A stretch of 32,000 nt of DNA, taken from NCBI GenBank assembly GCA_008080745.1, contig SHMX01000005.1:60001-92000 (forward strand), read 5' to 3'. A program made the translations under genes and the position numbers. Of the stretch, positions 2,436-28,209 are shown piece by piece; the stretch's first letter is position 1; each line of letters begins with the position of its first letter. This DNA comes from Candidatus Thorarchaeota archaeon (GTDB lineage: Archaea; Asgardarchaeota; Thorarchaeia; Thorarchaeales; Thorarchaeaceae). Under the pieces are notes generated by a model that was given only the letters and a program-made list of their open reading frames with translations, searched no databases and had not been told where the DNA came from.

Positions 2436-4310
2436 CTATCTTCTTGGTTTGTCATCCAACAATCCGAGTCTTCTCAGTGTGGTATCGAATGGAATGCCAG
2501 TTTCTATATCCCACCCACGATATTCATAGTATTCGTCAAGCATCTGATTGAGTTCTACCACTTCTCCCTTATTCGGCCCTAATGGTGCTGGCTCGTCCGT
2601 AAGTCGTTTTGGTAACTGATCATCTTTTCGTGATATTCCCAATCTGATATTGAACAGCCGATTGAGATTTACGATTCTCTCTCCTATGGTCTGTAGTTCT
2701 TCCCGGGTAAAAACAAGTCCATTATGTATTCGGAGGGCAAGTGCAACATCTTCGTAATAGAATTCTGGAGGGATCTGTGTTCCATATTTACAAAGCCCCA
2801 CACTCTCAATCATGACCATATAGTCTTCACATTCCTTTACCATGATTCCTTTGTAGGTTGGATTCAGACGTTCTGCCATCTCTGGCAAGTATTCCTCACC
2901 AAATCGTTCTCTTATCTCATCGTCAAATCCCGCCTCATCAAGCACAGGAAACGAATAGAGATGATCAGCTCCTCTTGCAGCTGTTACTGCAGCTAATCCC
3001 ATAGATTTCTGAGCTCGTGGTTCTTGTCCGGCTATCTCTTGCTTCTTCACGGTCATAACGAATTTCTCTGTTCCCTTTCCAATCTTTTGAGCTGCGCGAT
3101 AGCTTCCCTCGGCCAAGACATCACCAAAACCTTCACGCATTGCTATCATCTTGGTCAGTTTCACCACTGTTTCATGATTCCCCCACGTTAGATCTATCCC
3201 TCCTGTATCTTCAGCAGTTAATAGACCCTCATCCCATGCTTCCATTGCCCAGGATATAGTAGCACCAAGTGATATCGTATCCATTCCATATTGGTTTGCC
3301 AAATGATGCGAGTAGAGTACAGATTCGACATTATCGTTCCCACAACGGGAACCTAATGATGATTGCGACTCAAACTCAGGAGATCCTCCCTCATAGCAGT
3401 ATGGTCCTGTGGGTACAGCAGTAAACCTTCCACAGCGTTGTAGACAACTCCAATCTGCTCTTGGTTTCACAAGATAATCTTTCGTGATGGTTTCACCGCT
3501 GATTGCTTCATAGCCGTCAAATACTCCTTGACGCATATTGTAGCTTGGAAGTCTTCCAATATGATGCATAAGTTCTACAAGATTTGTTGTTCCATATCGC
3601 GCACGTTCGGGGGTGAAGGGATTAGCAAGCATACGTCTGTAGAACTCATCCATATGCCTAAGGTAATCTATTGGTTCAGCTACCTCGATTTTACCCGTTC
3701 CCCGTACTGAGATTGCTTTTATTTTCTTTGAACCCATAACAGCTCCAAGACCCGAACGAGCTGATGCTCTATCTCTGTCATTCATCACTGCTGCAAACCG
3801 AACTAGGTTCTCACCGGCCTGTCCTATTGCTAAGACGCGGCTCTTTCTACCATATTTCTCTCTAAGATAATCATCCGTTTCAAAGACATCACTACCCCAT
3901 ATATCCTCGGCACTTTCCAGGGTAACATCAGAATCTCGGATATTCAGATAGACTGGATCTTTTGATGCGCCTGTAAATAATACCGCATCATATCCTGCAA
4001 GCTTAATTTCAGTACCCCAAAAACCAGCAGAATGACTCTCACCCCAGACATTGGTCAATGGGGATAAGGCTGCGACCACTATTCTTGATGCTTGAGGAAA
4101 CATGGATCCTGTCAATAGACCGGTTGCTATACCCAATACATTCTTGGGCGATAGAGGATCGATATCCGGTGGAATCTCATCGTATAACACTTTAGAGAGA
4201 TATCCTGCACCTAGAAGATACTTTTTTACAATATCTTCAGGTATCGGTCGTTTCTCTACTTCTCCTTTGGTTAGGTTGACCCAAAGAATCTCGCCACCTA
4301 CTCCTTTCAT
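2436..4310 (-). CDS. aor: Tungsten-dependent aldehyde:ferredoxin oxidoreductase family protein (WOR/AOR), copy 1
   Basis: VNLTKG...YLLG, SPLT..WGES, IGQAGENLVRFA, R.G.GAVMGSKKIKAI, GMDTIS, RGADHL, YYEYRGWD..TG.P. ATG at 4310 with SD GGAGG; the ORF track uses TTG at 4316. Confidence 0.95.
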   Translation of the reverse strand: MKGVGGEILWVNLTKGEVEKRPIPEDIVKKYLLGAGYLSKVLYDEIPPDIDPLSPKNVLGIATGLLTGSMFPQASRIVVAALSPLTNVWGESHSAGFWGTEIKLAGYDAVLFTGASKDPVYLNIRDSDVTLESAEDIWGSDVFETDDYLREKYGRKSRVLAIGQAGENLVRFAAVMNDRDRASARSGLGAVMGSKKIKAISVRGTGKIEVAEPIDYLRHMDEFYRRMLANPFTPERARYGTTNLVELMHHIGRLPSYNMRQGVFDGYEAISGETITKDYLVKPRADWSCLQRCGRFTAVPTGPYCYEGGSPEFESQSSLGSRCGNDNVESVLYSHHLANQYGMDTISLGATISWAMEAWDEGLLTAEDTGGIDLTWGNHETVVKLTKMIAMREGFGDVLAEGSYRAAQKIGKGTEKFVMTVKKQEIAGQEPRAQKSMGLAAVTAARGADHLYSFPVLDEAGFDDEIRERFGEEYLPEMAERLNPTYKGIMVKECEDYMVMIESVGLCKYGTQIPPEFYYEDVALALRIHNGLVFTREELQTIGERIVNLNRLFNIRLGISRKDDQLPKRLTDEPAPLGPNKGEVVELNQMLDEYYEYRGWDIETGIPFDTTLRRLGLLDDKPRR

Positions 4311-4312
4311 TA

Positions 4313-4801
4313 TCAAGCATCCTCCTTATCATAGAGTATATCTTTATGTTTTTCATGCAGTTCAGAAATCCGCCCCTCCGGATCTTTTTCCTTCAGATCT
4401 TCTTCTGAGGTCAACCAAATTGCATTTACTGGGCATCTTTCGACACACGCACCGCATTGAATACATTTGAATGCCTTTCCTGTGTCTGGGTGAATCCTAA
4501 TCGCAAAGTATGGACAAGCTTCAACGCATGCTCCAGTTCCATCACACCTCTTGTTGTTAACAATTACAACCCCCTTAGAGGTTCGCATAATTGCCTCATT
4601 TGGGCATGCCGTAATACAGGGTGCATCTTCGCAGTTTCTACAAAAGAGTGGGAAGTCTAGTCCTGGTTCTATTCTAACAGCTCGTACCCGCGCTCTTTCT
4701 GGACTTATCACTTTGTAGAATTTCATGCTACATACATTCACACAGATCATACATCCAGTACATATATGGGGGTCACCAATAACAAATCTCAATTCGCTCA
4801 C
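4313..4801 (-). CDS. Four-cluster iron-sulfur electron-transfer subunit (DmsB/HybA/NarH-like) partnering WOR copy 1
   Basis: CTGCMICVNVC, CRNCEDAPCITACP, CDGTGACVEACP, KCIQCGACVERCP; its stop lies 2 nt before the WOR ATG. Confidence 0.92.
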   Translation of the reverse strand: MSELRFVIGDPHICTGCMICVNVCSMKFYKVISPERARVRAVRIEPGLDFPLFCRNCEDAPCITACPNEAIMRTSKGVVIVNNKRCDGTGACVEACPYFAIRIHPDTGKAFKCIQCGACVERCPVNAIWLTSEEDLKEKDPEGRISELHEKHKDILYDKEDA

Positions 4802-6172
4802 CTATCTCTTCTCCTCTATTGTTCGCCCTCCCATGGGCTGAAATATTCCATGTCCGGGTTTAACAAGAATTCTGCCCTCTTCATATACTGGTACACCCCT
4901 GACCAATGTCATAAGTGGCACTCCTTTCATCTTCAAACCCTCATAAAGTGTCCAATCGCATTTGGATAGCATCATCTCAGCCGTTATCTTTTCCTCCTTG
5001 GTCTGGTCTACAATAACGATATCCGCATCCGAACCAACCTGTAATATACCCTTTTTTGGGTAGAGCCCAAATATTTTGGCTGGGTTCTTTGACGCAACTT
5101 GGAGAAGTCTTGGGTATGAGATACGATTTTTATTCAGACCCTCTGAGAGCAAAACACGAAGAATCATCTGAATTCCATCTACCCCTGCCCACGCTTGACG
5201 AATGTCATCTCTCCCCTCTTCCTTTTTTTCTATTGGACAGGGTGCATGGTCGCTTACGGTGATATCAATCATCCCTCGAAGCAATGCGGACCATAATTCC
5301 GCCTTATCTTGTTTGGACCTTAGAGGCGGATTCATTTTGCTTTTGGGTCCGATTCGATTCATCTCATCACGGTGAAACATAAGATGATGGGGACATACTT
5401 CCGTTGTGACCATGACTCCATTCAACTTTCCTCTCTCCACCTCACGAATGCCTTCTCTTGTAGAGATATGAGCAATATGCAGATGTCCGCCAGTCTTCTC
5501 AGCAATTCCAATGACATGTCTAACTGCAAGCTGTTCTGCCAAGTTTGGTCTTGATAAGGAATGACTGATGGGGGCATCCCATTCATTGAGCATGTCTTTG
5601 CTAAACTCATCTAGAACTCCTTGATCTTCACAATGGATGGTCACATGTCCTCCATTTACGGATACTTCGCTGAGAAGACGCGATATCACACCGGAGTTAG
5701 TATAGAATGGTTCACAGGTAAATGCTTTGAATGACGCCGCTCCGCGAGCAATCATCTCGGGAACAATTGGGTAGTTCTCAGCATTCATCATTCCTACATT
5801 GAAAGCAAAATCGACAATGGATAGGTTGGACCCATCTGCAATCTTTTCCTGTAACATATCTGGGGTATCCATCTGACTTACGAGTGGCATATCTACTATT
5901 GTGGTTACTCCTCCAGCCGCAGCAGCAAAGGAACCGGGGGTAAACTCTTCATGATCAAGCATTCCTCTGTCATGGATATGTGCATGTCCATCAATCAATC
6001 CTGGCATCACAATTTTCTGTTTGGCATCAATTACTCTATCAGCATCAGGTAGATGATTGTCGGTAGCAATTATAGATATGATACCATCACGGATACCTAT
6101 CCCTGCCTGAACAAGGCCCGATTCGAATAGCAATCTTCCATTTCTAATAACGATATCCACGGTTCTGCTCAT
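4802..6172 (-). CDS. Cyclic amidohydrolase, allantoinase/dihydropyrimidinase-like
   Basis: Binuclear metal motifs DGHAHI, carbamylated Lys in FKAF, HCED, HIAHIS, EVCPHHL, KMNPPLR, SDHAP. It lacks the HxHxR(EPG) arginine of dihydroorotases, and AWAGVDG resembles allantoinase WGGI.G. Confidence 0.85.
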   Translation of the reverse strand: MSRTVDIVIRNGRLLFESGLVQAGIGIRDGIISIIATDNHLPDADRVIDAKQKIVMPGLIDGHAHIHDRGMLDHEEFTPGSFAAAAGGVTTIVDMPLVSQMDTPDMLQEKIADGSNLSIVDFAFNVGMMNAENYPIVPEMIARGAASFKAFTCEPFYTNSGVISRLLSEVSVNGGHVTIHCEDQGVLDEFSKDMLNEWDAPISHSLSRPNLAEQLAVRHVIGIAEKTGGHLHIAHISTREGIREVERGKLNGVMVTTEVCPHHLMFHRDEMNRIGPKSKMNPPLRSKQDKAELWSALLRGMIDITVSDHAPCPIEKKEEGRDDIRQAWAGVDGIQMILRVLLSEGLNKNRISYPRLLQVASKNPAKIFGLYPKKGILQVGSDADIVIVDQTKEEKITAEMMLSKCDWTLYEGLKMKGVPLMTLVRGVPVYEEGRILVKPGHGIFQPMGGRTIEEKR

Positions 6173-6187
6173 TCTAAGGTTTTCCTC

Positions 6188-6478
6188 CTATTGTGGATTT
6201 CCGCCGCCAATGGGGGGGAAAATTGCAACAGCATCCCCATCTGAAAGTTTTGTGTCATATCCATCTAGGGTTTCAATCCGTTTTCCGTTTATCATACAAG
6301 AGAAGAATCGTTTCAGTCTTGTAGTACCCTCTTGGAACACTGTTTCTTGAAATTCCTTGTCATATTGTTTCTTCAGCTTTATGAGAAGTTCTCCTACTGT
6401 GTCTGCTTCCATGTCAACCTTTCCTGTTCCTGCTACACTTCGAACAGTTGCAAAGAACTTCACCGTGACTTTAGCCAA
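6188..6478 (-). CDS. moaD: MoaD/ThiS/SAMP-type ubiquitin-like sulfur carrier with a 4-aa extension after the GG motif
   Basis: VTVKFFATVR...INGKRI...LSDGDAVAIFPPIGG-GNPQ*. Start is TTG at 6478 or at 6487. Confidence 0.9.
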   Translation of the reverse strand: MAKVTVKFFATVRSVAGTGKVDMEADTVGELLIKLKKQYDKEFQETVFQEGTTRLKRFFSCMINGKRIETLDGYDTKLSDGDAVAIFPPIGGGNPQ

Positions 6479-6504
6479 ATCCAACACCTACTAGACAAAG
6501 GCTT

Positions 6505-6518: not shown

Positions 6519-6602
6519 AGTTCGGAAATGTTATTGAAGTCGTTCCATAGACATATAGGGAATAATCTCTATTTGCTCTACTGTAATTCTGGAGTTGATA
6601 GC

Positions 6603-7496
6603 GTGGAGATAGTTGTCGTTGGTCATCTGAGCAGGGACCTTATCATTACCCCGGATTTGACAAGAGAGAGTCTCGGTGGTGCTCCAGCATATGCGATGAT
6701 TGCCCCTGCCATTGGTGCTCTCGGAGCGGGTATTGTGTCTCGAATAGGTTCAGACTTTGAACAGTCATATTTGAACGCACTTTACAGGTCTGGCCTTGAT
6801 CTCACGGGACTGAGAACTAGTCAAGACAAGTCCACCCGGTTTATCAATATCTACAACGCTGAGGGCGAGCGTACTCAACGAATAGAGTCAATCGCACCTC
6901 CTATTCATGGTTATGATTATTTACCAAAACATCTCTTGGCATCTATCTTTCATTTTTCTCCTCTTACCCCTGATGAGATTCATATCTCCTGTATTGAAAC
7001 TGCAAAGAGTTCGGGAGCATTGGTTTCTCTGGATGTTCAAGGATATTTACGGAATATTTCGGGGGAGAATGTCACATTATCTCGTTGGGAGTATCCCGAT
7101 GAAGTACTGAAATTTGTCGATATTGTCAAGGCCGAGGAATCCGAGGTGAAGTTCATATTTGAAGCGAAGACGGAGGTTTCAGCCGTATCTCGCATTTTGA
7201 GCCTGGGTCCTAGAGTTGTAATTATTACACGTAGCCAGAAAGGTTCAACTATCTACACCAGAAATAATCACGTTGATATACCACTAGTGTTGGCTGACAA
7301 GTTCATTGACAGTACAGGGTGTGGGGATGTCTATTCTATCGGATTTCTACTCTCTTACATGCGAACCGGAGATGTAAGTAAGGCTGGACTCTTTGGAGCA
7401 ACGTGTGCGTCTTTCAACTTGGAATCAATTGGCCCATATAATCCTCCCTCTATTGAACAGGTGGAGGAACGAATGCGAACCTATCTCCATGGCTGA
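6603..7496 (+). CDS. PfkB/ribokinase family carbohydrate or nucleoside kinase
   Basis: VVVGHLSRD, GGAPAYA, G.VSRIGSDF, VIITRSQKGS, DSTGCGDVY (PfkB signature variant). GTG at 6603 follows a GGAG SD; the ORF track starts at 6528. Confidence 0.88.
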   Translation: MEIVVVGHLSRDLIITPDLTRESLGGAPAYAMIAPAIGALGAGIVSRIGSDFEQSYLNALYRSGLDLTGLRTSQDKSTRFINIYNAEGERTQRIESIAPPIHGYDYLPKHLLASIFHFSPLTPDEIHISCIETAKSSGALVSLDVQGYLRNISGENVTLSRWEYPDEVLKFVDIVKAEESEVKFIFEAKTEVSAVSRILSLGPRVVIITRSQKGSTIYTRNNHVDIPLVLADKFIDSTGCGDVYSIGFLLSYMRTGDVSKAGLFGATCASFNLESIGPYNPPSIEQVEERMRTYLHG

Positions 7497-7638: not shown

Positions 7639-10407
7639 GTGTTGTTGGTGCTACGGAGTAAAGGTGTAGTTATACTCATTATTCTTGTTTCAGCTCTTTT
7701 CTTGTTTCTATCAATAGTTGGGAATAACTGTGATAATTCAATATATTCTTCAGAAGACATTTCTGAAACTGATTCGTTTCCCATGAAACTGAACCATCCA
7801 AGTTGGTACACTGATGAAGATTTTGATAATATGACCGCTCCAATATGTGATATGTCCGGTAATACTTTGGATGCCAGTGACGATGATTGGCCAACTTATG
7901 ATGCTATATTTACCTACTTCTACAATAATCAAAAGCATTTTGCCTTTATTTCTATGGCATGGGATGGACAAGACCTCTATTTCTATATAAGTATAAATGA
8001 TCCGAATAATTTGGAAACTGATACGGGATTTATGTTTGCTATCTTTATTCAATTTCCCGATCTATCTACAGACGATTTCTATATTGAGGTTACCGATTTC
8101 GAGAATGGTATATACAATACTGGAGGTATAAGTTCGGATGAAATTACATACGATAAGGATACAGGGAATCCAAGGATTGAATGTGAATATGATTTGAGCC
8201 CCTCTATCGTTGCTGGAACTGATTTGGGAATTTGTTTCTATTATCACGACTATGAATCAGATATTATAGACACATTTCCTATGTACTATGATGGAGGAAC
8301 AGAACCGGATCAATCGTATGGTACAGAATGGGCGCAATTACATTTGTTAGATGACACAGAGAGCCCACAAGTGGCACTGCAAGAACCTACCACCGAGGGG
8401 AACTACAATTATACATACGACACTCGCGAAATTGAATGGACTGCTTCAGATAATTATGCTATCGACCACTTTGATATCTTGAACAATAACAGTCTCCTTC
8501 AAGCGGGACTATCATCTGGTATACGGAGTTATAACATACCCGATTTGGGAGAGGGCGTACATAACATCACAGTAATTGTTTATGATACAAGAGATAATTG
8601 GGATACTAGTTATTTTTGGTTGGTTGTTGACAAAACCTCTCCAATTATGGATATAATCAGTCCTGTGAATTTATTCAATTGCACCTCACAATACGAATGG
8701 TTGAATTGGTCGGTAAGTGATAGTCTAACTTGGGTAGATTCGATATTTGTTTTTGATAATGAAACCAATGTTTCGGGTCAATTATCTGGAGATGTAACTT
8801 CATTTGAGTTGAGTCTTAGTCAAGGTCTTCATAATATCACAATAGTCGCTTATGATGTAGTTGGTAATATGGATACAGATACCATTTGGATTCGACGAGA
8901 TGGAATCACTCCCAATATTGAATTTCTTACTCCGGTGGAATTCGCATATCTTGATAGTTCTGAGGTTACTGTTTCTTGGATCGTGAACGATTCTAATCCC
9001 AGTTCTGATATTTATAGGACTCTTGTCTATCTTGATGAGCTTTTAAATAAAAGCAAACTTGGTATTATCTCGGAGGTTGATTGGCTATTATTTGAGGGTG
9101 AACATAATGTGACTATAGTTGTTGAGGATTATGCTGGAAATATTGAATCTTCAACCATTATGTTCTATGTAGATTTAAGCAATCCAGATATACAAATTAT
9201 AAAACCCTCTGCTGATATATATCTTTCAAATTCGTCTTATTCATTCATAATTGAATGGACTGCTTCGGATAATGTAGCTATTGACTACTTTGAACTATGG
9301 ATCGGAAGTACTTCCTATATTTTCGAATCAGATGTTCGCATGTATGAACCAGCGACTATAACATCAACGACCGCCTACACATTGAAGATCTTTGATAAAG
9401 CTGGTCATGTTGATTCAGATGGATTTGTTGTGTATTTTGATTCTTCTGGAGATACTTCTCCTCCCTTGCTATCAATTGAAAACCCTGTAAACGAAACCTA
9501 TTGTAATAGTGATGTTCTACTTAGTTGGGTTGCGAGTGATGCAGAATGCGAGATACGATATGTGAACATTAGCTTAGATGGTACTCTAATTCATTCAACA
9601 ACTGAATCTAGTGGTTCATATACTCTTGAATTTGAAGAAGAAGGAGTTCACAATCTATTTGTTATCACATGTAATGATATTGGACTAACAAAGAATAGAA
9701 GTATAGTCATTTTCTATGATATAACCCCTCCAACGATTACTATCCAATCTCCGAACAACAACCAGATTTTGATAAATTCCAATTTTCTAGTCACATGGAT
9801 AGGTGATGATGAAGGAATTATTGGCTCAATAGATTACTATGAAATTTTTCTTGGTTCTTTATCTCTTCGTCAGACAGAAAGTAACACTTACGCTTTTTCC
9901 GACATTTCCGATGGAGAATACTCTATTCGTGTAATTATTCATGATAAAGCAGGAAATATCGCTGAAGACTCTGTTACTATATGGGTGGATGTGGGTACAC
10001 CGACTCTCAGTCTTGTTAACCCAGCTAATTCTTTCACCCACAAAAAATCTGATGGAAACCTTATCCGGATTTCTTGTTTGGCTCAAGATAGTGCATCGGT
10101 ATCTTCTGTTGTCTTATATTTGACTGGGATTGATAATGAATATTCAAAAACATTGAATTTTTCATTTAATCCATCCACTGGTCATTGGGAAGTAACTTGG
10201 GACATCACAGAGGTTGAATATGGTTTATATTATCTGAATGTAACTGTACATGATTTGGCAGGCCATTCGAATTCGATAATTATAACTTCTGAATTAGTAC
10301 CTCCTACTCCTCTTGAGATACTGAAGGCAAATGCATTTTTCTTTACAGTAATCGGAGGCAGTGTCACGGTAATCGGTTTCATATTTAAGAGAACCCGAAA
10401 AGAGTAA
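7639..10407 (+). CDS. Membrane-anchored surface glycoprotein: signal/TM, DOMON/CBM9-like domain, 7 Ig-like repeats, C-terminal TM plus basic tail
   Basis: Hydrophobic N-terminus; AWDGQDLYFYISIND (DOMON/CBM9-like); seven roughly 90-aa repeats D.t.P.i.i..P...W..sD...G.h.i.i...D.aGn; about 18 NxS/T sequons by manual count; C-terminal FFFTVIGGSVTVIGFIF-KRTRKE. Confidence 0.85.
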   Translation: MLLVLRSKGVVILIILVSALFLFLSIVGNNCDNSIYSSEDISETDSFPMKLNHPSWYTDEDFDNMTAPICDMSGNTLDASDDDWPTYDAIFTYFYNNQKHFAFISMAWDGQDLYFYISINDPNNLETDTGFMFAIFIQFPDLSTDDFYIEVTDFENGIYNTGGISSDEITYDKDTGNPRIECEYDLSPSIVAGTDLGICFYYHDYESDIIDTFPMYYDGGTEPDQSYGTEWAQLHLLDDTESPQVALQEPTTEGNYNYTYDTREIEWTASDNYAIDHFDILNNNSLLQAGLSSGIRSYNIPDLGEGVHNITVIVYDTRDNWDTSYFWLVVDKTSPIMDIISPVNLFNCTSQYEWLNWSVSDSLTWVDSIFVFDNETNVSGQLSGDVTSFELSLSQGLHNITIVAYDVVGNMDTDTIWIRRDGITPNIEFLTPVEFAYLDSSEVTVSWIVNDSNPSSDIYRTLVYLDELLNKSKLGIISEVDWLLFEGEHNVTIVVEDYAGNIESSTIMFYVDLSNPDIQIIKPSADIYLSNSSYSFIIEWTASDNVAIDYFELWIGSTSYIFESDVRMYEPATITSTTAYTLKIFDKAGHVDSDGFVVYFDSSGDTSPPLLSIENPVNETYCNSDVLLSWVASDAECEIRYVNISLDGTLIHSTTESSGSYTLEFEEEGVHNLFVITCNDIGLTKNRSIVIFYDITPPTITIQSPNNNQILINSNFLVTWIGDDEGIIGSIDYYEIFLGSLSLRQTESNTYAFSDISDGEYSIRVIIHDKAGNIAEDSVTIWVDVGTPTLSLVNPANSFTHKKSDGNLIRISCLAQDSASVSSVVLYLTGIDNEYSKTLNFSFNPSTGHWEVTWDITEVEYGLYYLNVTVHDLAGHSNSIIITSELVPPTPLEILKANAFFFTVIGGSVTVIGFIFKRTRKE

Positions 10408-10486: not shown

Positions 10487-11680
10487 GTGACTGTAATGTT
10501 CGAAGATCTCGACCCACTTATGGAAGACGTTGGAATTGACGCATTGGTTTGTGAAGGAAATGCCTTTGAGGTTCCTGATATTGTCTGGCTGACTGGATTT
10601 CGCTCGACAGACTCAGTGATATATTTCAAAAACCAAGGTGAAAAGGGGCTGATTGCAACAGGGTATAATACCCTCGACCGTGCAAAAAAGGAGAGTTCGG
10701 TTACAGAATACCATGATCTGACTCCAATTTACAAAGATCTAAGACGAGAGAAAAAACGAGCCTATGAACATCCAGATGTCATCTATGGAGAGATTCTCAC
10801 TAGCCATTTCTCAGGTACGGTGATAGGTGTGCCAGACCACCTACCCGCAAGAGTACTTGTGGCTATTCAGCAACTTGGATATGACGTAAAAGTCGTTCCA
10901 AAACTTGTGAATAAGGCTCGTGCCACTAAAACAAAAGAAGAGATTGAAATCATCAGAAAGGCTGGTCATGCTACAACCTCAGCTATCAAGCGTGTTGTTG
11001 AGATGATTAAAGATGCAGACGTGGGTGAGAAGGACTCGCTCGTTCTTGATGGCACTCCTCTGACAGTTGGTCGAATCAAACTGGCCTTGGAACACTTCTT
11101 ACTCGATCAAGGTGCCGAGTCTGCAGAAGATGCAATTGTTGCCGTTGGTGACAAGGGGTTTGACTGGCACTATCTTGGAAAGTCCGATGATCATCTCAAA
11201 GCAAATGTACCCATAATTATGGATGTCTTTCCTCGTCTGAAACATGAGCGGTATGTTGCGGACGTTACTCGTACCATTGTGAAGGGTCGGGTTGACAAAA
11301 CTCTTCAGAATATGTTTGACGCCGTACACAGTGCTCTTGCCGCTTCAATAGAGGCTCTAACAGATGGTGCGAAAATCGATGATGTGAATATGGCATGTTT
11401 CCAGACCCTAAAACGTCATGGATACGATTCTAGTAGGCTGAATCTTGATGCCGAAGAGGGTATGACTCATGGTCTCGGACACGGAATTGGTCTTGAGGTG
11501 CATGAAGAACCAAGTATGTATCGATATGAGGAACATTTTGAAGCTGGACATGTTGTGGCAATTGAACCTGGAGTATATCTGAAGGCAATTGGTGGTGTCC
11601 GTATAGAGAACGATTATGCAGTCACTAAGAATGGTGCAAAGCGCCTAACAACTGATTTGGAAGACCTGATCTTTGTATAA
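10487..11680 (+). CDS. Xaa-Pro aminopeptidase/prolidase (peptidase M24)
   Basis: Metal ligands in IIMDVFP, YVADVTRT, HGLGHGIGLEVHE, IEPGVY, GVRIEND. The start may be ATG at 10496 (GGTGA SD). Confidence 0.93.
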   Translation: MTVMFEDLDPLMEDVGIDALVCEGNAFEVPDIVWLTGFRSTDSVIYFKNQGEKGLIATGYNTLDRAKKESSVTEYHDLTPIYKDLRREKKRAYEHPDVIYGEILTSHFSGTVIGVPDHLPARVLVAIQQLGYDVKVVPKLVNKARATKTKEEIEIIRKAGHATTSAIKRVVEMIKDADVGEKDSLVLDGTPLTVGRIKLALEHFLLDQGAESAEDAIVAVGDKGFDWHYLGKSDDHLKANVPIIMDVFPRLKHERYVADVTRTIVKGRVDKTLQNMFDAVHSALAASIEALTDGAKIDDVNMACFQTLKRHGYDSSRLNLDAEEGMTHGLGHGIGLEVHEEPSMYRYEEHFEAGHVVAIEPGVYLKAIGGVRIENDYAVTKNGAKRLTTDLEDLIFV

Positions 11681-13233: not shown

Positions 13234-15168
13234 CTATGCCAGCATTCCTCTCTGCTCAAGGTCCTTTACAACGAAGTCGAGATCCAGGTCCTCAAGAACT
13301 GATTTCTTAGGATAGCCTGTTTCTTTGTCACAACCTCGTAGTTCGTAATATTCGTCTAGCATATAGTCTAGATCTGGTAATCCGCCCTTAGATGGACCTG
13401 TCGGCATGGGTTCCTTCAGTAGCCTTCGTGGTAGAGTTTCATCTTTTCTCGTGATTCCAAGCCTGTGATTATACGCACGCCTGAGATGACTGATTCTGTC
13501 CGCAGATTGTCGTACGTATTTGACATCTCCCCATTCTACCATGCCTGTCAATGCAGGAAGCACATTTGCAAAGGTATCAAAGTAAAATATCGGGGGCCAC
13601 ATAGTTCCATACTTGCATATGACTGCTGAATCAGTTATTGCATAAAGGTTCTCCATGTCATAGACCACCAAGCCCTTGTGGACTGGCGACATGATCTCCT
13701 GAATCTCCTCTGCCTTGTCCTCTCCAAATCTGCGAATAGATATCTCGGGAAATCCTAATTCTTCGAGACTGGAGAGACTTCGTAAGTGATCAGCACCTCT
13801 TACGTTGGTTGCATAGGTAAGCCCTATTGATTGATGTGCACGAGGGTCTTGACCTGATGCCTCGAGTCCCTTTGAGTGAACTGCATATTTCCATGCTTCT
13901 CCGCCTATAATTTCTGCAGCTTTTCGAGTTCCGTGAGATAATAACTCGCCAATACCCTTCTCTCGTTTAGCAATTTTTTCAATTAGAGCGTTTATGGCAT
14001 CAACATTACCCCAGGACAAATCTAATCCATCAGTGTCCTTCTCGGTAAGTATTCCCTTCTCCCAGAGTTCCATTGCAAAGCTGATGGTCTTTCCACAAGA
14101 AATTGTATCCATCCCAAGTAGATCACAACGATGTCCTTGATGGAATACAGCTTCAATATCACTATTCATACAATTAGATCCGAAAGCCATGAGTGTTTCA
14201 TACTCGGGTCCACCAGCAGGGCCACCTGCGAATTTTCCCTCTTTAACACGATAGACGTACTTACAACCTATCCCACAGCCATGACAAGCTTCTTGGGCAA
14301 TTCGGTATTTTTCTGCAATAATCTCCGGGCCTATTTTTTCAGCCTCTTCAAAGAAGCCAGTCCAGTGATTCTTTGTCGGTAACCTTCCTATCTCGTTAAT
14401 CATGGCCACCAAGTCGGTGGTTCCATAATCTCTAAGGCTCCTGAGGAAATCTTTCCATAACGGGTCGTTTAGTCGCTCCATCTCTCTCTGGTTAGCCTCA
14501 AGATATGCATCCATATCATGTGCCTCCAGTCCAAGCGAGCCCCGTGCAGCAATCGCCTTTACATTCTTTGAACCCAATACTGTGCCGAGACCCGTTCTAC
14601 CTGCCGCACGATAGTAATCTACAATGATAGCTCCATAGAGTACCCCATTCTCACCTGCAGGACCTATAGTTGCAGTTTCTATAGCTGGGTCTCTATGCTC
14701 CTCTCTAATCATATCTGTTGTTTCATCAGTTTCTCGTCCCCATAATCTAGAAGCGTCACGAAGTTCCGCTTTTCCATCATTTAACCAGAGATAGACTGGT
14801 TTGGGCGATTTACCATTAAAAATGACAAAGTCGAATCCCGCATATTTAATCTCGGGACCCAGGAAGCCGCCAACATGACTCTCCGCCCAAATTCCAGTTA
14901 GAGGGCTTTTTCCTGAAAACATCATTCTTCCTGAGGGTGAAAACATTACACCTGTAAGAGGGCCTGTACCGACGATGACTATATTTTCTGGTGAAAGTGG
15001 GTCTGTATCGGGACCAGTTCTATCCCACAGAATCTTTGATGATATACCAGTTCCTCCAAGATAGAGTCTAGCCCATTCTTTCTCCATCTCCTTTTTGTGA
15101 ACCTTTCCTAGGGTAAGATCCACATCTAGATAGTATCCTGCATAACCTTTGTATGGAAAATCAGTCAT
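13234..15168 (-). CDS. aor: Tungsten-dependent aldehyde:ferredoxin oxidoreductase family protein (WOR/AOR), copy 2
   Basis: GYAGYYLDVDLT, GKSPLTG, IGPAGENGV, GSKNVKAI, CHGCGIGC, GPEYET, DLLGMDTIS, RGADHL, DSAVIC, YYELRG.D..TG.P. Confidence 0.95.
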   Translation of the reverse strand: MTDFPYKGYAGYYLDVDLTLGKVHKKEMEKEWARLYLGGTGISSKILWDRTGPDTDPLSPENIVIVGTGPLTGVMFSPSGRMMFSGKSPLTGIWAESHVGGFLGPEIKYAGFDFVIFNGKSPKPVYLWLNDGKAELRDASRLWGRETDETTDMIREEHRDPAIETATIGPAGENGVLYGAIIVDYYRAAGRTGLGTVLGSKNVKAIAARGSLGLEAHDMDAYLEANQREMERLNDPLWKDFLRSLRDYGTTDLVAMINEIGRLPTKNHWTGFFEEAEKIGPEIIAEKYRIAQEACHGCGIGCKYVYRVKEGKFAGGPAGGPEYETLMAFGSNCMNSDIEAVFHQGHRCDLLGMDTISCGKTISFAMELWEKGILTEKDTDGLDLSWGNVDAINALIEKIAKREKGIGELLSHGTRKAAEIIGGEAWKYAVHSKGLEASGQDPRAHQSIGLTYATNVRGADHLRSLSSLEELGFPEISIRRFGEDKAEEIQEIMSPVHKGLVVYDMENLYAITDSAVICKYGTMWPPIFYFDTFANVLPALTGMVEWGDVKYVRQSADRISHLRRAYNHRLGITRKDETLPRRLLKEPMPTGPSKGGLPDLDYMLDEYYELRGCDKETGYPKKSVLEDLDLDFVVKDLEQRGMLA

Positions 15169-27516: not shown

Positions 27517-28209
27517 TTGAAATATATCATTATTCCTACCTTAAATGAAGAAGAAAATATTGGCGAGCTGATTCATCAGATATACCAATACATGCCCCCA
27601 TCAGAAACAATGGTGATTGTGGTAGATGACGATAGTACTGATTCAACTCATCAAGTAGTGAGGAATGTTTCAAAGGAATACCCCCAGGTCAAACTTATAA
27701 TACGAAAAGATGAGCGTGGCTTGGGAACTGCTGTTCGAAGGGGTGCAGAAGAGGTTGGAGATGGACCTGTTGTTGTGATGGATGCTGATTTATCCCATCA
27801 CCCTCGACATTTACCATCCATGTTCAAAGCCCTTGCTCAAGGTGCAGATATTGTAGTTGGCTCCCGGTATGTAGATGGTGGTGGAATTAGGGGTTGGCCA
27901 GGAAGTAGGATTGCAGTAAGTAAGGTTGCAACCTTGATTGCTAAGATTATATTTCGTGTCCCAGCAAACGATCCCATGAGTGGGTTTGTGGGTTGTCAGT
28001 CTGCGGAAACCCTTACAAAGGGAATTGATTATGCAGATTTTAAATTCCTGCTTGAATTAATGGTTAAAAACAGAACCCTGCATATCAGCGAGGTTCCTAT
28101 CGTTTTTCAGGATCGTTTGAAAGGAAGTAGTAAACTGAAAGCAAAGACTATTGGACTATATCTATCTTTAGTGATACGACTTATGCTTGAATCCGGTTCT
28201 CAAAATTAA
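27517..28209 (+). CDS. GT2 polyprenol/dolichol-phosphate mannosyltransferase (DPM1-like, no C-terminal TM domain)
   Basis: IIPTLNEEENI, VVDDDSTD, VMDADLSH.P, VGSRY, DPMSGF, EVPIVFQDR..GSSK. Confidence 0.92.
   Translation: MKYIIIPTLNEEENIGELIHQIYQYMPPSETMVIVVDDDSTDSTHQVVRNVSKEYPQVKLIIRKDERGLGTAVRRGAEEVGDGPVVVMDADLSHHPRHLPSMFKALAQGADIVVGSRYVDGGGIRGWPGSRIAVSKVATLIAKIIFRVPANDPMSGFVGCQSAETLTKGIDYADFKFLLELMVKNRTLHISEVPIVFQDRLKGSSKLKAKTIGLYLSLVIRLMLESGSQN

What the first reader, a model, noticed from the sequence alone, without database searches (positions are those of the whole stretch)
6188..6220. Ubiquitin-like MoaD/SAMP encoded as a pro-protein (FPPIGG-GNPQ)
Seen: TTC CCC CCC ATT GGC GGC GGA AAT CCA CAA TAG, so four residues follow the diglycine. 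Established: MoaD and SAMP need a free C-terminal GG for adenylation. Extended Ubls (some bacterial ThiS-like carriers, archaeal ubiquitin precursors, eukaryotic SUMO/NEDD8) are matured by JAB/JAMM or other deconjugases. No such protease is in the window. Inference: tungstopterin sulfur delivery or sampylation may be gated by eukaryote-like proteolytic maturation. Caveat: GGA at 6200-6202 is one base from TGA, so a recent stop-loss or a base-call error would give the same picture.
Basis: partly seen in the sequence, partly recalled or inferred. Interest (0 to 1): 0.6.

Follow-up and report, generated by a model that had tools for sequence, protein, structure and literature searches.

The report
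Capped ubiquitin-like protein in tungsten-enzyme operon
A small ubiquitin-like protein of an Asgard archaeon really is encoded with three extra residues (Asn-Pro-Gln) after its reactive glycine end; this is a recurring and already documented kind of archaeal precursor, probably trimmed by the genome's single JAMM protease, so it is real but fairly ordinary.

Summary
The minus-strand ORF 6188-6478 is an archaeal MoaD/SAMP1-type ubiquitin-like protein that does not end at its glycines.

The cut point is one residue off. All 120 close homologues have FPP[VI]GGG and 116 stop right after the third Gly. The tail is therefore NPQ (3 aa), not GNPQ, and the "GGA is a mutated TGA" caveat fails.

The tail is not an assembly artefact:
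- The only other species of the genus has GGG-NKFE.
- A second genus (3 of 3 genomes) has 9-13 aa tails, and one further species has SHE.
- That makes at least three independent stop shifts at the junction with the next gene.
- The body stays under purifying selection (dN/dS 0.11).

The genome holds one JAMM1-type desampylase with an intact motif, one UbaA/MoeB-type E1, and three other Ubls that end in free GG.

JAMM maturation of archaeal SAMP precursors has been shown experimentally (Caldiarchaeum CsJAMM; HvJAMM1). This is a new member of a known kind. The scan has noted capped-GG Ubls in at least 13 other genomes.

"Tungstopterin sulfur delivery" is doubtful, because MoaE, MoaA, MoaC and MoeA were not found in this 98%-complete genome.

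The parts
6188..6478 (-). Ubl gene (archaeal MoaD / SAMP1 type), 96 aa from TTG 6478 (alternative GTG 6487 gives 99 aa); first gene of the operon
   Evidence: Pfam ThiS 57.8 bits. TIGR01687 77.6 bits and SAMP1 NF041918 68.3 bits, both above their cut-offs. Closest solved structures are SAMP-type proteins 2M19, 2L52, 2G1E and 1VJK.
6200..6208 (-). GGC GGC GGA = the family's invariant GGG; the last two Gly are the reactive diglycine
   Evidence: 120/120 homologues have FPP[VI]GGG. All profiles and solved chains end on the third Gly.
6191..6199 (-). AAT CCA CAA = three-residue cap Asn-Pro-Gln beyond the diglycine
   Evidence: The sister species has AAC AAG TTT GAA (NKFE) at the same place.
6188..6190 (-). 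TAG stop of the Ubl gene; its G begins a GGAGG Shine-Dalgarno-like site (6184-6188) for the next gene
   Evidence: TAG ends 422 of 1334 long frames in this genome and no CUA-anticodon tRNA was found.
4802..6172 (-). cyclic amidohydrolase (allantoinase / dihydroorotase / hydantoinase-like), second gene
   Evidence: Pfam Amidohydro_1. The NCBIfam allantoinase, DHOase and hydantoinase equivalog models all score below their cut-offs; the generic pyrC_multi domain model is just above its own. The gene is conserved after the Ubl gene in G066, G005, G015 and G074.
4313..4801 (-). poly-[4Fe-4S] ferredoxin, third gene
   Evidence: Pfam Fer4 families.
2436..4316 (-). aldehyde:ferredoxin oxidoreductase (AOR) family tungsten-type enzyme, fourth gene
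   Evidence: AFOR_N and AFOR_C, E 7e-74 and 7e-126.
6528..7496 (+). PfkB-family kinase, divergently transcribed conserved neighbour
   Evidence: Pfam PfkB. Same position in four relatives.

Best explanation
The gene encodes an AOR-operon-linked archaeal MoaD/SAMP1-type ubiquitin-like protein. Its stop codon has moved three codons downstream of the family's normal end (…FPPIGGG|NPQ).

Origin of the tail (shown or strongly inferred): the shift arose in the very short junction with the next gene and was inherited within the genus. The same kind of shift happened independently in at least two other lineages of the same taxonomic family.

Fate of the tail (inferred): the body and the GGG stay under purifying selection, so the protein is still used. 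The most likely route is as follows.
1. The pro-form is trimmed after the last Gly by the genome's single JAMM1-type desampylase (G000 contig C2:486563-486976).
2. The exposed Gly-Gly carboxylate is adenylated by the single UbaA/MoeB-type E1 (C1:199235-200014).
3. The protein is then used as a thiocarboxylate carrier and/or protein modifier.

In this genome that use is probably not classical MoaD-MoaE molybdopterin synthesis, because MoaE and the rest of the pathway were not found.
For: Identity:
- Searches give profile and structure-sequence matches that end on the third Gly.

The tail is real and heritable:
- 116/120 homologues stop at GGG.
- The same-genus genome G066 has GGG-NKFE, and both tails start with an Asn codon.
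- Genus g4 has tails in 3 of 3 genomes.
- G074 has SHE through TGA>TCG relative to G015 and reads into the next gene's ATGAGTAG.
- AAT cannot become a stop by one substitution, and a 1-base indel does not restore a stop after GGG (sequence).

The protein is still functional:
- dN/dS between the G000 and G066 bodies is 0.11.
- All 36 distinct orthologues compared (43 loci) have exactly 87 aa from KFFA to GGG.
- Tail bearers lie at the low end of the identity range but inside it (0.61-0.64, against 0.62-0.69 for the others).

The machinery is present:
- One Prok-JAB gene with an intact HSHPAPPQPSTSD motif. Its closest solved relative is PfJAMM1 (5LDA), E 7e-17.
- One E1.
- The three other Ubls end in free GG.
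- JAMM is found in 81 of 86 genomes of the family, including all six tail bearers.

Precedent:
- CsJAMM cleaves the Caldiarchaeum SAMP precursors. The MoaD-type Csub_C1603 carries 12 residues after PPIAGG (PMC6043591 main text and supplement).
- HvJAMM1 cuts a SAMP1-MoaE linear fusion exactly after GG (PMC4443979).
Against: - No cleavage data exist for this protein.
- The JAMM gene is on another contig, next to an Lrp-type regulator and RNase P subunit genes, not next to any Ubl.
- JAMM is near-universal in the family, so its presence does not discriminate.
- The tails share no sequence between lineages, as expected for neutral stop drift rather than a selected pro-peptide.
- Tail bearers have slightly lower mean identity to the family, which could reflect mild relaxation.
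- The pathway the Ubl would feed is unknown, because MoaE, MoaA, MoaC and MoeA were not found.
Confidence: 0.55

Rival explanations
1. The tail is never removed. The Ubl works non-covalently, for example as an accessory or assembly factor for the amidohydrolase-ferredoxin-AOR unit. The GGG would be conserved for docking into a partner, so a few extra residues are simply tolerated.
For: - The operon link to AOR is kept in 75 of 86 genomes while MoaE is present in only 31 of 86. The protein's role is therefore not tied to MoaE.
- Tails of unrelated sequence and length (3-13 aa) persist in three lineages.
- Tails are frequent among diverse representatives.
Against: - 116 of 120 close homologues end exactly at GGG. 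This argues that the free carboxylate matters.
- The protein scores above the curated SAMP1 cut-off.
- An E1 and a desampylase are both present.
Confidence: 0.25
2. One reading: a MoaD for tungstopterin synthesis, whose sulfur delivery is gated by proteolytic maturation.
For: - AOR-linked MoaD genes have been proposed to make pterin for the tungsten cofactor (PMC1779556).
- In Thermococcus kodakarensis all three Ubls, including TK1065 encoded next to an AOR gene, contribute in varying degrees to tungsten cofactor synthesis (PMC11323500).
Against: - MoaE was not found, either by Pfam search or by tblastn with same-family MoaE proteins.
- MoaC, MoeA_N and the MoaA C-terminal domain were not found either, in a genome rated 98% complete.
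- The MoaD equivalog models score far below their cut-offs (33 against 66 bits).
Confidence: 0.1
3. The gene has been disabled by stop loss and is decaying, or the tail is a sequencing or assembly error.
For: The window protein has the lowest mean identity to its orthologues (0.61).
Against: - dN/dS is 0.11 against the sister species, which also has a tail.
- There are no indels or internal stops.
- Two independent assemblies lack a stop after GGG.
- At least two base changes would be needed to make AAT a stop.
Confidence: 0.05
4. TAG read-through fuses the Ubl to the amidohydrolase. The two ORFs are in the same frame, separated by one TAG and five codons. The result would be a Ubl-enzyme fusion that JAMM would split, like SAMP1-MoaE.
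For: Frame continuity is seen (stop-to-stop frames 4802-6187 and 6188-6487 abut).
Against: - TAG is an ordinary stop here, ending 32% of long frames, and no CUA-anticodon tRNA was found.
- In the sister species the two genes overlap in different frames.
Confidence: 0.02

Closest known systems
Caldiarchaeum subterraneum SAMP precursors (Csub_C1603, Csub_C0702) cleaved by CsJAMM (Fuchs et al. 2018, PMC6043591)
   Same: An archaeal MoaD-type beta-grasp Ubl encoded with residues after …PPIxGG. A stand-alone JAMM/MPN+ protease is present in the same genome.
   Different: Their tails are 12 aa or a whole extra domain, and one precursor gene sits next to the JAMM gene. Here the tail is 3 aa, the JAMM is on another contig, and cleavage is untested.
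Haloferax volcanii SAMP1 / UbaA / HvJAMM1 (PMC4443979) and Pyrococcus furiosus JAMM1 (PDB 5LDA)
   Same: The protein passes the NCBIfam SAMP1 cut-off. The genome has one UbaA-like E1 and one JAMM1-like protease. HvJAMM1 cuts linear fusions exactly after GG.
   Different: Native SAMP1 ends in free GG and pairs with MoaE. Here MoaE was not found and the gene sits in an AOR operon.
AOR-linked MoaD gene clusters (Iyer, Burroughs & Aravind 2006, PMC1779556; Makarova & Koonin 2010, PMC2948915; T. kodakarensis TK1065/UblC, PMC11323500)
   Same: A MoaD-family gene is encoded directly beside AOR and 4Fe-4S ferredoxin genes.
   Different: This operon adds a cyclic amidohydrolase between the Ubl and the ferredoxin, and it lacks MoeB/MoaE nearby. 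The Ubl is capped.
Bacterial JAMM-dependent carriers CysO/Mec+ and QbsE/QbsD (recalled from memory, not checked here)
   Same: ThiS/MoaD-type carriers whose C-terminus is freed by a JAMM peptidase.
   Different: In those systems the JAMM is encoded in the same operon and the pathway is known.

Membership tests
ThiS/MoaD beta-grasp family (Pfam PF02597) | Profile match above the gathering score, covering the whole domain | tested here: met
   57.8 bits against 22.5. Profile positions 1-76 of 76 align to residues 9-96 of the 99-aa form.
ThiS/MoaD beta-grasp family (Pfam PF02597) | Gly-Gly is the very C-terminus of the encoded product | tested here: not met
   NPQ follows the aligned GG.
Archaeal MoaD subfamily TIGR01687 / SAMP1 NF041918 | Score above the curated cut-offs | tested here: met
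   77.6 against 49.5 bits, and 68.3 against 60 bits.
Archaeal MoaD subfamily TIGR01687 / SAMP1 NF041918 | UbaA/MoeB-type E1 present in the genome | tested here: met
   One ThiF-family gene, E 1.6e-65, with MoeB and UbaA models as the best matches (both below their curated cut-offs).
Archaeal MoaD subfamily TIGR01687 / SAMP1 NF041918 | Forms a thiocarboxylate and/or isopeptide conjugates | not testable with these tools
   Needs biochemistry or proteomics.
Molybdopterin synthase small subunit (MoaD sensu stricto) | Partner MoaE and the rest of the pterin pathway are present | tested here: not met
   MoaE, MoaC, MoeA_N and the MoaA C-terminal domain were not found. tblastn with same-family MoaE proteins gave E > 0.1. 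Genome is 98% complete.
Molybdopterin synthase small subunit (MoaD sensu stricto) | Passes the MoaD equivalog models | tested here: not met
   TIGR01682 scores 33 against 66 bits; NF008347 scores 33.9 against 94 bits.
JAMM-matured archaeal Ubl precursors | Residues beyond GG, plus a JAMM/MPN+ protease with an intact metal motif in the genome | tested here: met
   Tail NPQ. A 137-aa Prok-JAB protein with the H-x-H-x7-S-x2-D motif, most similar to PfJAMM1.
JAMM-matured archaeal Ubl precursors | Cleavage exactly after the last Gly | not testable with these tools
   Needs an in vitro assay or mass spectrometry.
AOR-linked MoaD gene cluster | MoaD-family gene adjacent to AOR and 4Fe-4S ferredoxin genes, conserved in relatives | tested here: met
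   An orthologue is present in 75 of 86 genomes of the family.

The most novel reading that the evidence does not exclude
In these Asgard archaea the AOR-operon Ubl serves a MoaE-independent function. This could be modification or sulfur supply for the amidohydrolase-ferredoxin-AOR unit, or handling of a salvaged pterin cofactor. In some lineages its activity is gated by JAMM trimming of a cap. All six capped copies occur in genomes where MoaE was not found, and this genome has five AOR genes but no detectable pterin-cofactor pathway.
Probability: 0.12. Interest if true: 0.6.

Novelty: new member of a known kind. Interest (0 to 1): 0.25.

Why it matters
It adds a natural example, heritable within a lineage, of a capped archaeal MoaD/SAMP1-type Ubl. 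It also shows that such caps arise repeatedly by stop-codon drift at tight gene junctions and are tolerated. That tolerance fits with the near-universal archaeal JAMM desampylase acting as a general "un-capper". On its own this does not open a new question.

The more useful lead is the context. The AOR-linked Ubl operon is kept in genomes that appear to lack MoaE and the rest of pterin cofactor synthesis. That raises two questions: what this Ubl actually does, and how five AOR-family enzymes get their cofactor.

Tried and rejected
- **GGA at 6200-6202 as a mutated TGA.** Rejected. That Gly is invariant in 120/120 homologues.
- **Base-call or indel error.** Rejected. The sister species also lacks the stop, and no single change restores one.
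- **TAG recoding or read-through into the in-frame amidohydrolase.** Rejected. TAG is a common stop, no CUA-anticodon tRNA was found, and the shared frame is not conserved.
- **Link between caps and loss of MoaE.** All six capped genomes lack MoaE, but so do 55 of 86 in the family. With about three independent events the chance expectation is about 0.26, so this is not evidence.
- **JAMM co-occurrence.** Uninformative, because JAMM is in 81 of 86 genomes.
- **JAMM or E1 next to a Ubl in this genome.** Not seen.
The sister locus was reached through the genome search and the fetch from genomes instead.
- No structure prediction was run, because profile and PDB sequence matches settled the fold.

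Full report
**Observation**

The reverse complement of window 6188-6220 reads TTC CCC CCC ATT GGC GGC GGA AAT CCA CAA TAG, exactly as reported. It closes a minus-strand ORF at 6188..6487, 99 aa from GTG. The database gene call and the homologues begin at TTG 6478, giving 96 aa that start MAKVTVKFF.

The protein matches these models:
- Pfam ThiS: 57.8 bits, cut-off 22.5.
- NCBIfam TIGR01687, archaeal MoaD family: 77.6 against 49.5 bits.
- NCBIfam NF041918, SAMP1: 68.3 against 60 bits.

Its closest solved relatives by sequence are SAMP-type proteins 2M19, 2L52, 2G1E and 1VJK.

**Where the true end lies**

All of these profiles and solved chains end on the third Gly of GGG. Among 120 close homologue clusters, every one has FPP[VI]GGG and 116 stop immediately after it.

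The cap is therefore NPQ (three residues, 6191-6199), not GNPQ.

**Is the cap real, and is it unique?**

The window lies in a 3.16-Mb, 19-contig genome rated 98% complete. Source names on the homologues point to Thor- or Lokiarchaeota-type Asgard archaea.

Whole-genome searches of the taxonomic family found an orthologue in 75 of 86 genomes. Reading the junctions gives this picture:

| Lineage | Genomes | Tail after GGG |
|---|---|---|
| Genus g1 | G000 (this window) | NPQ |
| Genus g1 | G066 (73% aa identity) | NKFE |
| Genus g4 | G004, G005, G014 (3 of 3) | TGVHISKNGVKTS, TSLVQRSME, TPLAGRSME |
| Genus g9 | G074 | SHE |
| Other loci read | – | none (stop directly after GGG) |

- In genus g1 both caps begin with an Asn codon (AAT and AAC).
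- In G074 the TGA seen in its congener G015 is TCG, and the frame runs into the next gene's ATGAGTAG.
- The other orthologue loci whose junctions were read stop right after GGG, usually within 1-4 nt of the next gene's start.

The cap has therefore arisen at least three times by stop-codon shift at a very tight gene junction, and it is inherited within genera. In the window no single substitution turns AAT into a stop, and no 1-base indel restores a stop after GGG. Together with the independent sister assembly, this makes a sequencing error unlikely.

Across 150 diverse cluster representatives, 115 end in GG, 28 carry tails of 1-20 aa and 6 carry longer extensions. This may overstate the frequency if representatives are the longest members of their clusters.

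**Is the capped gene still in use?**

- Between G000 and G066 the 87-codon body gives dN/dS 0.11, with dS about 1.9, near saturation.
- All 36 distinct orthologues compared (from 43 loci) have exactly 87 residues from KFFA to GGG.
- Capped copies keep GGG. They sit at the low end of the family's identity range but inside it (0.61-0.64, against 0.62-0.69 for the others).

This is purifying selection, not decay.

**The machinery elsewhere in the genome**

- No JAMM lies in the window.
- The genome has one Prok-JAB gene at C2:486563-486976, 137 aa, with the motif HSHPAPPQPSTSD. Its best solved relative is Pyrococcus furiosus JAMM1 (5LDA), E 7e-17. It also gives a sub-threshold match to the haloarchaeal desampylase model.
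- That gene sits beside an Lrp-type regulator and what look like RNase P subunit genes (my reading of the ORFs, not scanned), not beside a Ubl.
- There is one UbaA/MoeB-type E1 at C1:199235-200014.
- Three further ThiS/MoaD-family genes all end in free GG: …VQGG, …IAGG and …IHGG.
- JAMM is found in 81 of 86 genomes of the family and in all six capped ones. This is consistent with trimming but does not discriminate.

**Precedent**

- Fuchs et al. [quoted passage not shown] The synthetic gene in their supplement shows that the MoaD-type Csub_C1603 carries 12 residues after …PPIAGG.
- HvJAMM1 cuts a SAMP1-MoaE linear fusion exactly after GG, in vitro and in vivo (PMC4443979).
- AOR-linked MoaD clusters were described in 2006 and 2010 (PMC1779556, PMC2948915). 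T. kodakarensis TK1065 is an example (PMC11323500).
- The scan itself holds 13 notes on capped-GG Ubls in at least 13 other genomes, including the sister species' PPIGGG-NKFE.

**What the Ubl is for**

The operon is Ubl, cyclic amidohydrolase (allantoinase/dihydroorotase/hydantoinase-like; the specific allantoinase, dihydroorotase and hydantoinase equivalog models all score below cut-off), poly-ferredoxin, then AOR. A divergent PfkB kinase sits upstream. This arrangement is conserved in G066, G005, G015 and G074.

The genome has five full-length AOR paralogues. The following were not found:
- MoaE, either by Pfam search or by tblastn with same-family MoaE proteins.
- MoaC.
- MoeA_N.
- The MoaA C-terminal domain.

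Only one MoCF_biosynth-domain protein is present. In the family, MoaE occurs in 31 of 86 genomes while the AOR-linked Ubl occurs in 75 of 86. The Ubl also fails the MoaD equivalog models.

A classical MoaD-MoaE role is therefore unlikely here. A SAMP-like modifier or alternative sulfur-carrier role is more plausible, but that is inference.

**Verdict**

The best explanation (confidence about 0.55) is a stop-shifted pro-form that the JAMM1-type desampylase trims before E1 activation. The main rival (about 0.25) is an untrimmed Ubl that acts non-covalently. Error, decay and read-through are each unlikely.

This is a new member of a known kind, of modest interest.

Noticed in passing
whole genome G000 (AORs at window 2436-4316 and 13234-15168, plus contigs C1, C7, C10): The genome has five full-length AOR-family genes. 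MoaA (C-terminal domain), MoaC, MoaE and MoeA were not found in an assembly rated 98% complete. In the taxonomic family MoaE is patchy (31 of 86 genomes). How these tungsten/pterin enzymes get their cofactor is unexplained.
   Followed up: partly
window 4802-6487 (-): The Ubl ORF and the amidohydrolase ORF are in the same reading frame, separated only by one TAG and five codons. TAG is an ordinary stop in this genome, and the shared frame is not conserved in the sister species.
   Followed up: yes
window 4802-6172 (-): A cyclic amidohydrolase lies between the Ubl and the ferredoxin-AOR pair. It scores below every specific equivalog cut-off for allantoinase, dihydroorotase and hydantoinase (only the generic pyrC_multi domain model passes), and it is conserved in that position across several genera. 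This suggests a ring-opening step coupled to the AOR.
   Followed up: partly
window 7639-10407 (+): A 922-aa repeat-rich surface protein sits between the PfkB kinase and the M24 peptidase gene (10487-11680). In four relatives the M24 gene follows PfkB directly, so this looks like a lineage-specific insertion.
   Followed up: no
G058:C1:2074045-2074266: The orthologous Ubl match in this relative stops aligning at residue 74 of 97. It may be truncated or broken.
   Followed up: no
genome G000, position 28105-28195 of a contig I did not record: ARAGORN finds a tRNA-SeC (anticodon tca). This is consistent with selenoprotein use noted elsewhere in this genome.
   Followed up: no
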